In this document: in pieces, positions 9,001 through 18,500 of the stretch
How the letters are laid out: each line of letters begins with the position of its first letter
How positions within the stretch are numbered: the first letter of the stretch is position 1
Origin: Mobula birostris
Lineage: Eukaryota
Length of the DNA: 64,000 nucleotides
Assembly: GCF_030028105.1 (NCBI RefSeq)
Contig: NC_092384.1
Location: 3,639,665-3,703,664 of the forward strand
Direction of reading: 5' to 3'
Position numbers: made by a program

Positions 9001-12000
9001 ATCTGTACCATTAGGTCGTCTGTTATTTTAAATTTCTGCATGTTGCCGCAATGACGTCAAAGTGAAACCAAGATGCAAGGGTTGTGCAGTCTATTTGCAA
9101 AACCATTTCTTACACGACCCTCGAAAAAGCTTCTCATCACTGTGCTATGTGATTGAACATTTAAAATACAGTTACTACGGTCTGATTTCATCAAATTTAT
9201 TGAAAATGCATAGATTTCATTAGCTGCTTAATCTCTGCGTCCTGCAGATTGTGTACACAGGTATGTATACAATTCCATCGTTGATCTAGAATAACGTGTT
9301 GTGAGATATTCAGAAATTGTTTGTGACAAGCTGTTGCCCATGAAGTAAACCGCAGATTTGTTATTTTAAATTGATTTACTTTACTCACAGTCGAATCGAT
9401 CCATTTCAGTCACAGTGATATAATATATGCATATTTTATTTTTAATAATTTTGTCAATAAAGCCAACCATTATGCTCTGATAACGATTGTTTTTCATTCT
9501 GACAGTTGTTGACAGGGCCTCGTTCACAGTGCGCCAGACTCCTGGGCAGGTGACTAAGTCAGAGGGTGCAAATGTGTCAATTTACTGCACCGACCCAGTC
9601 TGCGCTCAGAACACAGCGGTGACTGTTTGTTCGTGGACAGCGGGACAAAAACGATACTCAGGTGCTTCTGCAGACAGAAGGATGAGTATTATAACTTCAG
9701 AGCAAGGTTCTGCCGAATTCCATATCTTCGGGGTGAGATTCGGTGACTCTGGAATCTATTATTCCAGTGTGAGAGACTGAACAAGAAAGACTCCCAAGGC
9801 AAGGGCACGAGTGTTATTGCACACGATAATTCTCAATCGTCGTGTTTTAAACAAATGCAACTTCTAAATTAAACGGAACGCCTTAGGTATTGATAATGTA
9901 CAATAAGAGACCACCTCTCAACCCACAACAGTATTCTTTCTTTCAGGTTTGAATAACCACTGTTTACTGTTGGTGGAACAGTAAAATCTCGTAAAGAATA
10001 TTGTTCTCTAATTTCAAGTAATTTTATGCTCCTTTATATCCGGAGATATAATTCCTGTGATGTACATGTGAAGAAGGACTTTATGTCGGTAGATTGGCAG
10101 TTAATGGAATAGAATGTTACATGTGCTAACTGAAATCATTCAATCAGATTCGACACCTGTGAGTTACAGATGATGACGTGCCCTTCGTAAGTTACGAGTT
10201 CAGACATTACTTGCAGAATATTAAATTGATTCTGCAAAAAGTTCGAGTGCTTTGCCGGCGTATACGACGAATAAACCCTTCTCGGGATTCCAACCGGGAA
10301 CAGATGTCAATTGTAACCGACGTCTCGATGGCATACTCTACCATTCTTGGAGAATCCGAGAAGAGTTTATTTGGAAACTCGAGTCTGCCTGTCCCATTGC
10401 AAATAGAAACAATGAATAAATGTTTGTTGTGTGTATTTAAATAATTACCGAATGCAGAACGCATTAACTGCTAAACAGAATCAGAATCAGAATATCACCG
10501 GCATTTGTCGGGAAATTTATTAACTTACCGGCACCAGTTCAATGTTAAGCACAATAGAACATAATAATGTAAGAAAAAGAGAAAATAAATCACCAGTGAA
10601 TCATATATACGTGAGGTGTTGTTCAGTCGTTAAGTCGAGTCCGATTCTTCGTGACATCATGGACCAGGTGGTCTATAGCTTTTTAATGGCAGGATAGGGA
10701 AGTAGATTGCCAGGCATTTGTTCCGCGCATATATTGCTGCAGCCCCGCTGGACCCGGCTGGGTTTGAACTCAGTTCTATCCGCCTTGAAGTCCAGTGCTA
10801 ATGCACTGAGGTAGTGTTCATTGGTTTATTATCCATGCGGAATCGGATGGCAGAAAGGAAGTAAAAGTTCTTTGAATCGCTGACTGTGTGCCTTCACGCT
10901 TCTGTACCTCTTTCCTCACGGTAATAAAGAGAAAAGGACATATCCCTGGTAATGTAAGTCCTTAATGATGAACGCAGCCCTCCCGAGACACTGCTACTTG
11001 AAGGTGTCTTGGATACTAGTACTCATGATAGAACTGACTCATTTTGTAACTTATTGTAGCTTACTTCGATCCAGTACAGTAATCGCTCCCCAGCATACCA
11101 GACAGCGATGCAACCTGTCAAAATGCTCTCCTGGTACATCTGTAGAAGTTTTCGAGTGTCCTAGGTGACAAACCGAATCTCCTTAAACTTCTAATGAAAT
11201 ACAGACAGTATCTTACCCCCATTATAGCAACGTCGATATGTTAGGACCAGGTTAGATCCTCAGAGATATTTTCACCCAGGAACTTGAAATTTCCCACTCT
11301 CTCCAAATTTGAGGATTGATTTATGATTCCTCCTCCTATTGTTTCTGAAGTCCTTGGTCAACTTTCTCGTCTTACTGACGTTGAGTAAAAGGTTGTTGCT
11401 GCAATTCCACTCAGCTAGCTAATATCACTCTCTGCTGTACATCCTCACCTTTCTATCTGAGATTCTGCCAACAATTGTTGTATCATTACCAAATGTATTC
11501 ATGACATTTTAGCTATTCCTACCAAATAGCCATGGATATAGCGAGAGTAGAGAAGTGGGCTAAGGACACATCCCACAGATGCACCAGTGATGATCCTCAG
11601 TGAGAAGGAGTTATTGATGCAAATTGTTTTCCTCAGGTCACCAAGTTGAGAATCCATAACACATTTAAGAGAAGACTGGATAAGTGTTTTGCCTATTAGG
11701 GTAATTAACAAATACGGAGAAAAGGCAGGTTGGGATGGAGATGAGTTCATGACCAGATCAGCCATGATCTTATTGAATGACGGAGCAGGCTCGAGGGGTC
11801 AGATGGCCTTCTTCTGCTCCTTTTTCTTATGATCTTATGCACTCAATTAAACAGCAGAACGTTTAAAAGAGCAAAACAATGATATTAATAATTTTAAATA
11901 TATTAAAGATTTCATGAAATTCTGTGGGTTTCTGACATGAATGCGGTAAAGTATGTAATATAAGTTTGTCTTGAAGCAGAGATTGATAAAATAAATGACG

Positions 12001-15529: not shown

Positions 15530-18500
15530 TGGGTGAGGGTGTGGGGTTGGGAGGCGGGTTGTAAGGAGAACGTATAAGGTAAAGGGTTGGGATGGTCCCT
15601 GGAATAGATCTTCATTCAATTCAGTAATCGTAAGGCACAATCGACGACACTCAGTTGATTAGTATCAAACAGCGTCGTGGCATTAGCCTTGATACATACT
15701 GGAAAACTATCTGCAGCATCAAATGAGTCGCTACGGCATTGTTACAACCACGGAATCCACGTGTTGTCAAAAATTGCCCAAGCACGCCCTATTCACAAAA
15801 TGCCAGATACAGTGCAGTTACTCTGGTAATTTCCAAAACAATCAAGAGAAAAACGATGGAAATGTAACAGCAACATATTTAGCACTTGGATCTATTCTCC
15901 AACGATATTCTCGTTCGCTTTAGAAGTTGTGGACTGCCAGGAATACTCGGTTCCAAAACTCATCAAAACCACTTCCTCTTCCTTTACTACACTGAGTAAA
16001 ATGTTCATGAATGTAATACATTATATAAATACCATCCTTTAATTTTGTCATGCTGTTGAGAGCAGTGAGCGAGAAGTGAGGCATGGCCGGGGTATTATAC
16101 GCTGTGCTAAATGCTGAGGGTATTGTTAGACACCATGAATACAAATCTACGAGAAATTTCTGTTTTTCACATATGGCAGTATTCAGCAAATATCGTACCC
16201 TCCAACTATCCGGACCTGACTTTCGGTTTTGTTTTACACTACCTTACTCCCATTTTTCTATTTTCTATATATGATTTATAATTTATTTTTTATAATATTT
16301 ACTAATTTTAACTACCTTTAAAATATTTTGAATATTTAATATTTGTAATCCAGGGAGTGTGAAACGCAGAATCAAATATTGCTGTGATGAGTGTACCTTC
16401 TAGTACCAATTGTTTGCCGACAATAAAGTATAAAGTAAAGTAAAGGTTTTCTTGAGAAAAACATATTTCTTTTCGGTTGCCTTCTGGAGAGATGTGGTTA
16501 GAATTAGCATTGGCCATACTCTGTTTTTTTTTCTGGGTTTTTGTGGAACGGGGATGGTATATTTGTTCTTATTTTAATTTTTTTTCTTTAAACGGGCTGA
16601 TTTGAAACTACCAGAATTCCGAAACGTCGTGACTTCCAGTTCCTCTTTGAACTGTTTTTTTTTCCTCATCCGGGGTCATGAGTTTGTATTCTGGTTAACG
16701 CTTTACATACCTTGTGTTCGACTTCAGTACTGTCGATAAGATTAGTAATTTGGTTTCTTGGAATACAAATATTTTAAACCACCCAATTAAACGGAAGAAT
16801 TTTTTTAAAGTATTCCATAGGATAAATGCTCATATTATTTTCGTACAAGAAACTCATGTGCGGAAAGCGGATAATCAGCGTTTTTTTTTTAGGTTTTGGA
16901 AGGAATAGCAGTACATTTTGAATTCACAGACGAAAGTGAAAGGTGTTTCTATTTTTATAGATCCCTCAAGTTCATTTGTGGATTATGAGACTATTTCAGA
17001 TCCGAGTGGTAGATTTTTGTTAATTGCTGCTTTGTTATTTTACCATGGATAATGTTTACACTCCAAATACTGATTGTCCGAAATTTTTTAAACATGTCTT
17101 TACACCCATTACTAACTTAAACGATTATCTGTTGATTATGGGTGGAGATCTCATCTTTTGTTTAAATCCTTTGATGGATAGATTTATGTCTAATCAGACA
17201 CTCCCGAACAAATCGGCTACTCCTATTAACTCTTTTATTGTTGACTCCGGAATTTCAGAAATTTGGAGATTCTTACACCCCAACAATAAAGAGTATTCAG
17301 TTGTTTTCATCCGTATATCATCATTATATTAGAATTGATTACTTTCTTATTGACTCTCGATTAATTCCACTTGTTATTGACTGCAAATATGACTCCATTG
17401 CTGTCTCCGATCATGCACAATTGAAACTATCTATTAAGTTAATCGATACATCTTCTGGTACTAGACAGTGGCGATTTAATACCACTTTGCTTCAACACTG
17501 GGACTTTGTTAATTTTATTGAGGAACAGATTATTTTTTTTCCTCACAACGAATTTTACGGAAGGAATTTCCAGCGGGGTACTGTGGGACACTTTTAGAGC
17601 ATATATTCGTGAACAAATTATTTCATATTCTGCTGAACTGAAAAATGTGAACTAACAATGAAATACTTAAGCTGGTTTCAAGATCAAAGGAATACCAAGA
17701 AATGTTCTATTGCTCCTAATCAGGAGCTTTATAAAAAGAAAGTCCAACTTCAAATGTAATATAGTCTATTACTATCATCTTCGATTGAAAATCAATTAAT
17801 TAAAATTAGGAGTCACTTCTAGATACATGGTGATAAAACTGGGAAACTACTGGCTTAATCAATTGAAATCGGCTTCGGTTAAACGCCAGATCGTTAAGAT
17901 CCGTAAAAGAGATAGTGCTCTGACGGTTGATCATGATGAGATAAACAAATCCTTTCAAGAATTTTATACCTCTCTATACCAATAGGAATCTCCTGATGAC
18001 TCCACTATAATACATGTATTTTGAAAGAAATTGGATATTCCACAATTACCACCCAATGATCGGCTATAACTACAGGTACCTATTACGGTAGAAGAAATAA
18101 CAACATTCTATTTCCTCTATGAATTCAAGTAAAGCTCCTGGTCGAGACGGTTATGCCAGAGAATTTTCTGAATCCTTCTCTACTATACTTTCTCCTTCGT
18201 TATGTAGAATCGTTAGGGATGCAGTTTTTTAGGGATTTTTCTACCGAGCTTCTATATCCCTAATTGTTAAAAAGAATAAGGATCCTACTGAAAATGCATC
18301 TTATAGGCCTATATCTTTGCTGAATGTGGATACTATTTTTTTCGGAAATATTGGCAACGAGCGAACAGAGCAGCGGACATGCCGGCTGAAATCTGGAGGA
18401 AAACACACAGAGGAGGCAGAGGGAGACCAAAAAGGCGAGGGAGAGGACTGGATCGAGACAACAGAGGCTTATGGAGAAGAGAAGTTATAAGCCGTGTCTC

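What the first reader, a model, noticed from the sequence alone, without database searches (positions are those of the whole stretch)
9206..16195. Pseudogene paralog that reveals the family's full exon architecture (L-V-TM-cyt-cyt)
Seen: six independent lesions (leader TAG, Trp to Ser, Cys to Ser, TGA, frameshift, GT to AT donor). Downstream phase-1 exons splice in frame: a TM exon at 14444-14554 and cytoplasmic candidates at 15924 and 16063. No C-domain exon was found between V and TM, matching the single-V layout of NKp30. Inference: birth-and-death evolution of an NK-receptor cluster.
Basis: partly seen in the sequence, partly recalled or inferred. Interest (0 to 1): 0.68.

Follow-up and report, generated by a model that had tools for sequence, protein, structure and literature searches.

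The report
Dead immune-receptor gene in manta ray
This is a broken, non-working copy of an antibody-like cell-surface receptor gene sitting beside a working copy in a manta ray genome; it is an ordinary product of gene duplication and decay, and it does not show the gene family's true layout.

Summary
The window matches Mobula birostris (manta ray) RefSeq proteins at 100%, so it is not human. The pseudogene is real. The membrane-spanning (TM) exon at 14444 is also real. It matches the C-terminus of a Mobula hypostoma receptor at 80% over 41 residues (E 5e-16). The two 'cytoplasmic exons' are no better than chance: there are 62 equally good intervals in that stretch, against a mean of 61.8 in control tiles, and neither resembles any family tail. 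The claimed family layout is wrong. The intact paralog in this same window encodes L-V-C1-TM plus a long tail with ITIM/ITSM-like motifs (P0153). The V-only form is an annotated C1-skipping isoform. No C1 remnant lies anywhere in the window. NKp30 is in none of the best-60 listings of three PDB searches; SIRP-alpha and shark UrIg2 rank high. Best reading: a decayed member of an elasmobranch VJ-C1 receptor cluster, possibly once a short-tailed partner of the inhibitory neighbour.

The parts
9206..14568 (+). Pseudogene locus as a whole: leader, V and TM/short-tail exons, with no C1 exon between them
9206..9260 (+). Leader exon of the pseudogene (broken)
   Evidence: Aligned to the intact leader 61628-61682, 40 of 55 nt identical. 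13 of 18 residues match the leader of P0002.
9506..9825 (+). V (VJ-type) exon of the pseudogene (broken)
   Evidence: 71% aa identity to the intact V, E 3e-37. Pfam V-set scores 19.9 bits, below the 26-bit cut-off. 275 of 320 nt are identical to the intact V exon.
14444..14568 (+). Stalk, transmembrane and 12-residue tail exon of the family's short-tail type. It is open, has an AG acceptor and ends in a stop codon.
   Evidence: P0038 residues 247-287: 80% over 41 aa, E 5e-16. P0038 was the only hit in the 5.8-billion-protein search. P0033 matches at 44% over 36 aa, E 0.002. An alignment to P0161 puts that family's TM-exon end at the same position. AATAAA at 14802.
15924..15995 (+).
   Evidence: It is one of 62 such intervals in 14569-16400; control tiles have a mean of 61.8. 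No family match better than E 3.5. No tblastn hit here from 168 proteins.
16063..16080 (+). Judged chance.
9126..11571 (+). Segment paralogous to 61547-63998; the match runs off the window end
   Evidence: 80.7% over 2481 nt. Identity rises from 66.7% in the 5' flank to 90.6% in the last 297 nt.
61628..62233 (+). Leader (61628-61682) and V exon (61913-62233) of the intact paralog. Its C1, TM and tail exons lie beyond the window.
   Evidence: 100% identical to P0153 and P0001 (XP_072135197/8, Mobula birostris). Pfam V-set E 1.9e-10.

Best explanation
The locus is the decayed remnant of one member of an elasmobranch multigene family of non-rearranging VJ-C1 immunoglobulin-superfamily receptors. 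It lies about 52 kb upstream of an intact, inhibitory-type paralog in Mobula birostris. Shown: the leader and V exons carry six lesions; no C1 exon survives; 4.6 kb downstream lies a still-open exon for stalk, transmembrane helix and a 12-residue tail. The only annotated counterpart of that exon is the last exon of a V-C1-TM short-tailed receptor of Mobula hypostoma. Inferred: leader, V and this TM exon once formed a single gene, a short-tailed counterpart of the long-tailed ITIM/ITSM-bearing neighbour, as SIRP-beta is to SIRP-alpha. That gene then lost its C1 exon and decayed. It makes no protein now. The two downstream 'cytoplasmic exons' are chance open intervals.
For: Pseudogene: six of six lesions seen. 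The V exon (85.9%) is no better conserved than the 1735 nt of intron behind it (84.3%). Of 105 compared codons, 33 differ non-synonymously and 5 synonymously. No annotated protein is closer than 72% to the V and none from M. birostris holds the TM exon.

TM exon: E 5e-16 to P0038, ungapped, with the junction codon matching.

Family layout: P0153 has V-set plus C1-set plus TM plus tail. Reading the tail of P0153 gives one YxxL, one LxYxxV and one TxYxxI motif.

Both tail types exist in the family. Of 68 proteins with a TM-like segment, 49 have long tails, 40 of them with an ITIM-like motif. Nineteen have short tails, 1 with the motif and 10 with a charged residue or His in the TM core. This is a crude script.

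P0038 carries an accession number adjacent to the M. hypostoma orthologs of the intact gene, on a chromosome of the same length. I take this as a sign of the same cluster; that is inference.

Cytoplasmic exons: chance test and no homology.
Against: The V and TM types do not go together in any annotated protein. All six nearest relatives of the pseudogene V have the long tail. The only holder of this TM type has a V that is just 31% identical to the intact V. The window's TM lacks the mid-membrane Arg that P0038 has, so it may never have paired with an adaptor. The C1 loss is inferred from absence only. An open 41-codon exon is not evidence of function: at the lesion rate of the leader and V exons (3 disabling lesions in about 125 codons), about one lesion would be expected, so zero is unremarkable (my arithmetic). 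The 80% identity to P0038 is low for orthologs of congeneric species, whose V domains are 93% identical. One tblastn hit of a C1 region (P0018 against 29964-29755, minus strand, E 0.001) exists. It lies inside a retrotransposon RT relic, contains a stop and was not recovered by the C1 profile.
Confidence: 0.5

Rival explanations
1. Two unrelated relics. The leader, V exon and part of the intron are a partial duplicate of a long-tailed gene. The TM exon is what remains of a separate P0038-like gene whose own leader, V and C1 exons were deleted. One version is a deletion fusing two adjacent genes. Leader, V and TM never worked together.
For: The V type and TM type are never combined in annotated proteins. 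The best hit of the pseudogene V (P0155, 72%) and the only hit of the TM exon (P0038) have adjacent accession numbers in M. hypostoma. Identity to the intact locus starts only about 80 nt upstream of the start codon and is uneven along the segment, 66.7% rising to 90.6%, as expected of a mosaic history.
Against: No remnant of a second leader, V or C1 exon lies anywhere upstream of 14.4 kb. Both exons are on the same strand, in the right order and in compatible phase. The identities of 72% and 80% are too low for orthology to the M. hypostoma pair.
Confidence: 0.3
2. The TM exon is still in use, as the last exon of a live gene whose V and C1 exons lie upstream of the window. The pseudogene V merely sits in that gene's intron.
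For: The exon is open, keeps its AG acceptor and stop, and has AATAAA 234 nt downstream of the stop.
Against: No M. birostris protein in the 5.8-billion-protein set contains it; only 1 of 2 candidates passed, and that was the M. hypostoma protein. The first 9 kb of the window show retrotransposon relics and no Ig exon. The exon lacks the mid-membrane Arg of P0038.
Confidence: 0.07
3. One reading: the pseudogene preserves the family's complete layout of leader, V, TM and two cytoplasmic exons, with no C domain, like NKp30.
For: V-only isoforms (L-V-TM-tail) are annotated for the intact paralog and relatives: P0001, P0156 and P0006.
Against: Isoform X1 of the same intact gene has a C1-set exon. 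76 of the 107 proteins of 470 aa or fewer examined hit the family C1 profile. The cytoplasmic candidates are at chance level and unlike any family tail. NKp30 is not among the best 60 PDB matches.
Confidence: 0.03

Closest known systems
SIRP family (SIRP-alpha inhibitory, SIRP-beta activating): paired receptors
   Same: N-terminal VJ-type V-set domain followed by a C1-set domain, then a TM. Long tails carry ITIM/ITSM-like tyrosine motifs and there are short-tailed relatives. NCBI names several members 'tyrosine-protein phosphatase non-receptor type substrate 1-like'. SIRP-alpha (2wng) ranks 5th and SIRP-gamma (4i2x) 23rd in the family-profile search of the PDB.
   Different: The family has one C1 domain, not two. 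Orthology to tetrapod SIRPs was not tested and the names are automatic. The ligand is unknown. The window's short-tail exon lacks a basic residue in the membrane core.
UrIg / UrIg2 of elasmobranchs (non-rearranging VJ plus C1-type domains)
   Same: Single-exon VJ domain with a split leader, followed by a C1-type domain. UrIg2 (9dmx) ranks 2nd in the family-profile PDB search, E 2.2e-38. Passages of PMC12227049 describing UrIg/UrIg2 were read.
   Different: UrIg has three C domains and is secreted, and UrIg2 has many C domains (passages). This family has one C1, a TM and signalling tails, and it occurs as a tandem cluster.
NKp30 (NCR3)
   Same: Non-rearranging VJ-type V domain. The pseudogene locus as it stands, and the X2 isoforms, have V joined directly to TM.
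   Different: The family's main isoforms carry a C1-set domain and long inhibitory-type tails. NKp30 did not appear among the best 60 PDB matches of the V alone, of P0153 or of the family profile. The two papers on shark NKp30 that I wanted (PMC3709836, PMC4594805) are not held. What I know of NKp30's layout is therefore recalled, not checked.
Birth-and-death multigene receptor clusters (KIR, LILR, Ly49): recalled general knowledge
   Same: Tandem paralogs, pseudogenes among live genes, divergent ligand-binding domains, and inhibitory and short-tailed forms side by side.
   Different: The host lineage (batoid fish) and the domain type (VJ-C1) differ. No functional data exist.

Membership tests
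Ig-superfamily V-set (VJ-type) receptor | V-set domain with canonical Cys...Trp...Cys and a J-like G-x-G-T motif encoded in the same exon | tested here: met
   Intact paralog: Pfam V-set E 1.9e-10, 41.3 bits against a cut-off of 26. In 39 family members C46, W61 and C105 are invariant and G117 and G119 nearly invariant. The pseudogene V scores only 19.9 bits, below the cut-off, and has lost two of the canonical residues.
Elasmobranch VJ-C1-TM receptor family (the family of P0153, P0002 and P0038) | C1-set domain exon between V and TM | tested here: not met
   Present in P0153, P0002, P0038 and P0158 (Pfam C1-set, E 2.5e-13 to 9e-15). Absent from the pseudogene locus and from the whole window (C1 profile; tblastn of 168 proteins). 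The locus is a member by descent (V and TM homology) but lacks this exon.
Elasmobranch VJ-C1-TM receptor family | TM exon homologous to a family TM exon, in phase 1 | tested here: met
   80% over 41 aa to P0038, E 5e-16. 44% over 36 aa to P0033, E 0.002. The junction codon matches.
Pseudogene | Disabling lesions relative to an intact paralog, and no annotated protein product | tested here: met
   Two stops, one frameshift and one lost donor, plus two canonical-residue replacements. The closest annotated protein is 72% identical.
SIRP-like paired receptors | Inhibitory member with ITIM/ITSM in the tail | tested here: met
   The tail of P0153 has LxYxxV and TxYxxI motifs (sequence). 40 of 49 long-tailed family proteins have at least one [ILVST]xYxx[ILV]. 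These are motif matches only; signalling was not tested.
SIRP-like paired receptors | Activating member with a short tail and a basic residue in the TM that recruits an adaptor | tested here: inconclusive
   P0038 has an Arg in the TM core. The window's exon has a hydrophobic residue at that position and an Arg only at the outer edge. Adaptor pairing is not testable here.
SIRP-like paired receptors | Orthology to tetrapod SIRP genes (phylogeny, synteny) | not tested
   Only PDB rank and automatic names are at hand.
NKp30 (NCR3) | Single V domain with no C domain as the gene's normal layout | tested here: not met
   Isoform X1 of the intact paralog and four of the six nearest relatives carry C1-set.
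NKp30 (NCR3) | Specific sequence relationship of the V domain to NKp30 | tested here: inconclusive
   NKp30 is not among the best 60 of the 112 PDB sequences matched by the V, nor among the best 60 for P0153 or the family profile. Rows beyond 60 are not shown.
NKp30 (NCR3) | Linkage to the MHC | not testable with these tools
   No flanking genes in the window and no access to the chromosome.

The most novel reading that the evidence does not exclude
Rays and sharks possess a SIRP-like system of paired receptors built on one VJ and one C1 domain. Inhibitory (ITIM/ITSM) and at least two kinds of short-tailed members are shuffled within one tandem cluster. On this reading the locus is a dead short-tailed partner, made by joining an inhibitory-type V to a TM exon of another lineage. 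That would make it a snapshot of paired-receptor evolution by exon shuffling in the oldest jawed-vertebrate lineage, within a gene type (non-rearranging VJ-C1) discussed as kin to the antigen-receptor precursor.
Probability: 0.3. Interest if true: 0.45.

Novelty: new member of a known kind. Interest (0 to 1): 0.25.

Why it matters
By itself the finding matters little: it is one more pseudogene in a fast-evolving immune-receptor cluster. Its use is as a correction and a pointer. The family's real layout is leader, VJ, C1, TM and several tail exons. The manta cluster holds long-tailed members with inhibitory-type motifs next to short-tailed ones. Non-rearranging VJ-C1 genes are discussed as relatives of the antigen-receptor precursor (passages of PMC10751288 and PMC12227049). 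My four literature searches found no description of this TM-anchored family in print.

Tried and rejected
(1) A search for a C1 exon. I ran tblastn of 152 and then 16 more family proteins and a profile of 70 C1 domains. Nothing turned up in 9.8-14.4 kb. Weak hits at 49756-49628 (E 0.53) and 29964-29755 (E 0.001, inside an RT relic, with a stop) were rejected.

(2) A relic of the long-tail TM exon at 12713-12796 (best E 0.93). This is a T/C-rich stretch and the hit is no better than the reversed-window null, whose best E is 1.6. Rejected as chance, though not excluded.

(3) Long-tail exons anywhere in the window. Nothing convincing.

(4) The idea that the V exon is better conserved than its introns. 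This holds only against the upstream part. The downstream intron is equally similar, so I dropped it.

(5) Alternative short-tail isoforms of the intact gene's ortholog. Its four M. hypostoma isoforms all end in the long tail.

(6) Rfam and tRNA scans of the window found no match.

(7) The papers on shark NKp30 are not held.

Stop-free stretches were scanned instead.
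Full report
Source and limits. The intact V exon in the window (61915-62232) is 100% identical to two RefSeq models of Mobula birostris: XP_072135197 and XP_072135198, here P0153 and P0001. I therefore take the window for manta ray, not human, and the restriction on human contigs did not come into play. The window holds one run of 138 N, outside 9000-16400; I left it as it is. The V exons were searched, the TM exon, and the cytoplasmic candidates locally.

The pseudogene. A tblastn of the V reading at 9508-9777 against the window finds one paralog, at 61918-62184 (71% identity, E 3e-37). A self-comparison shows that 9126-11571 matches 61547-63998 at 80.7% over 2481 nt, and the match runs off the window end.
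- two premature stops
- one frameshift
- two replacements of canonical Ig-fold residues
- one lost splice donor

Pfam places the intact V in V-set (41.3 bits, cut-off 26) and the broken one below the cut-off (19.9 bits). The V exon is 85.9% identical to its paralog, and the 1735 aligned nt of intron behind it are 84.3% identical. The 5' flank, leader and first intron are lower, at 66.7%, 72.7% and 71.2%. Of 105 codons compared, 33 differ non-synonymously and 5 synonymously. There is thus no sign of purifying selection on this V since the split. The uneven identity also hints at a mosaic history.

What the family looks like. The intact paralog's isoform X1 (P0153, 361 aa) has these parts: leader, VJ domain, C1-set domain (Pfam, residues 132-205, E 2.5e-13), TM and a tail of about 115 residues. 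The tail carries one YxxL, one LxYxxV and one TxYxxI motif, which I read from the sequence. Isoform X2 (P0001) skips the C1 exon. Isoform sets in M. hypostoma, Hemitrygon and Heterodontus show skipping of the V, C1, TM or one tail exon. The gene therefore has separate leader, V, C1 and TM exons and at least three tail exons; this is inferred from gene models.

Of the six annotated proteins nearest to the pseudogene V (67-72% identity), four carry C1-set and two are C1-skipping isoforms. All six have the long tail.

A profile of 39 family members searched against the PDB ranks an IgA heavy chain first, shark UrIg2 second (E 2.2e-38) and SIRP-alpha fifth (E 9.4e-32). NKp30 is not in the best 60 there, nor in the searches with P0153 or with the V alone. 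NCBI's automatic names for relatives are SIRP-alpha-like, tapasin-related-like, NCR3LG1-like and 'uncharacterized'.

The TM exon. Residues 247-287 of P0038 align to 14443-14565 without gaps, with 33 of 41 identical (E 5e-16). P0038 is XP_062923424 of Mobula hypostoma, with V-set and C1-set by Pfam. The codon split by the phase-1 junction also matches. P0038 was the only protein found with this exon among 5.8 billion, as 1 of 2 candidates, so no M. birostris model uses it. A sixgill-shark (Heptranchias perlo) relative, P0033, matches more weakly (44% over 36 aa, E 0.002).

This follows from comparing P0160 with P0161 and from the alignment. P0038, however, reads through that point for four codons to a stop, and the window has the same four residues and stop. 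AATAAA lies at 14802. I therefore read 14444-14568 as a terminal exon of a short-tailed type. One caveat: the first two read-through codons are dictated by the donor consensus itself. The window's exon also lacks the Arg that P0038 has in the membrane core.

No C exon, no tail exons. tblastn of 152 and then 16 more family proteins found no C1 remnant in 9.8-14.4 kb or elsewhere. Neither did a profile of 70 C1 domains run against 3242 six-frame pieces. Three weak hits are on record:
- The only profile hit below E 0.5 is the intact V exon itself (E 0.008).
- One hit at 29964-29755 (E 0.001) lies in a retrotransposon relic and contains a stop.
- Hits at 12713-12796 to the long-tail TM (E 0.93) are no better than a reversed-window null (best E 1.6).

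The interval 15924-15995 is one of 62 open phase-1/phase-1 AG..GT intervals in 14569-16400. Sixty-five control tiles have a mean of 61.8, and 29 of the 65 have at least 62. The candidate at 16063 gives five codons and then a stop. Neither resembles any of 161 family proteins, with best E values of 3.5 and 2.7.

Interpretation. What is shown: a dead leader and V, a missing C1, and a real, still-open short-tail TM exon, all on one strand, in the right order and in compatible phase. What is inferred: that they were once one gene. Arguments for:
- No second leader, V or C1 exon lies upstream of 14.4 kb.
- The family has both long-tailed and short-tailed members. Of 68 proteins with a TM-like segment, 49 have long tails, 40 of them with an ITIM-like motif, and 19 have short tails (crude script).

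Arguments against:
- This V type and this TM type are never combined in an annotated protein.
- 80% identity to P0038 is low for an ortholog, given that the V domains of orthologs are 93% identical.

A deletion that fused two neighbouring genes would also fit. The best hit of the V (P0155) and the only hit of the TM exon (P0038) carry adjacent accession numbers, on an M. hypostoma chromosome of the same length. Accession order is only a hint of gene order.

Virus-like stretch (description only). Of 46 open stretches outside the V exons scanned with Pfam, 9 match reverse transcriptase (RVT_1), 4 of them above the family cut-off. Two match ALKBH8_N just downstream of an RT match, and one weakly matches the endonuclease/exonuclease/phosphatase family upstream of an RT match. 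None matches integrase, gag, protease or envelope. The layout is that of non-LTR (LINE-like) retrotransposons. No RT match covers the whole 205-position profile, and every copy is split over several open stretches. I did not count the breaks, because no intact reference copy was at hand.

Literature. Four searches found no paper describing this TM-anchored VJ-C1 family. I read passages of PMC12227049, PMC10751288 and a reference list in PMC3964593. PMC4594805 and PMC3709836 are not held, so statements about NKp30's own layout rest on recall.

Verdict. This is an ordinary pseudogene of a known kind of gene family, and it does not display the family's architecture.

Noticed in passing
2680-4947 (-), 8043-8399 (+), 19073-21246 (+), 29839-32086 (-), 39706-40146 (-), 42220-42627 (+), 44103-44967 (+): Relics of LINE-like retrotransposons. 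RVT_1 matches occur in 9 of 46 open stretches scanned, ALKBH8_N in 2, and a weak endonuclease match in 1; there is no integrase, gag or envelope match. All copies are fragmented. Breaks were not counted.
   Followed up: partly
29204-31270 vs 43392-41487: Two copies of the same retroelement family in inverted orientation, 80-82% identical. Further partial copies lie at 25730-26204 and 38616-39301.
   Followed up: no
52562-53046 and 53742-54225: A pair of 485-nt direct repeats, 84% identical and 1.18 kb apart. Nature unknown: a tandem duplication or the ends of a small element.
   Followed up: no
9126-11571 vs 61547-63998: Identity between the two paralogous loci rises steadily from 5' to 3': 66.7% in the 5' flank, 71-73% in the leader and intron 1, 86% in the V exon, and 81% rising to 91% along intron 2. 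The pseudogene's leader is closer to that of P0002 than to that of the intact neighbour. This suggests a mosaic or gene-conversion history.
   Followed up: partly
proteins P0153/P0001 vs P0002 (genes at and beyond the window's 3' end): Two neighbouring M. birostris genes have V domains only 69% identical, yet their TM-plus-tail sequences differ at a single residue over roughly 140 residues. Either the 3' exons were recently homogenised or the gene models share exons.
   Followed up: no
12713-12796 (+): A T/C-rich stretch whose translation weakly resembles the family's long-tail TM segment (E 0.93). It is no better than the reversed-window null.
   Followed up: yes
   Followed up: no
protein P0016 (unnamed representative): This family member's model starts with about 130 residues that match retrotransposon RT relics in the window (E 2.5e-12 at 39603-39460). 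It is probably a gene-model fusion with a repeat.
   Followed up: no
family proteins: Short-tailed members fall into at least two TM types. One is the P0038 type seen in the window. The other has an acidic or polar residue plus His or Tyr near the inner end of the TM (for example P0158, P0022, P0011, P0071).
   Followed up: partly
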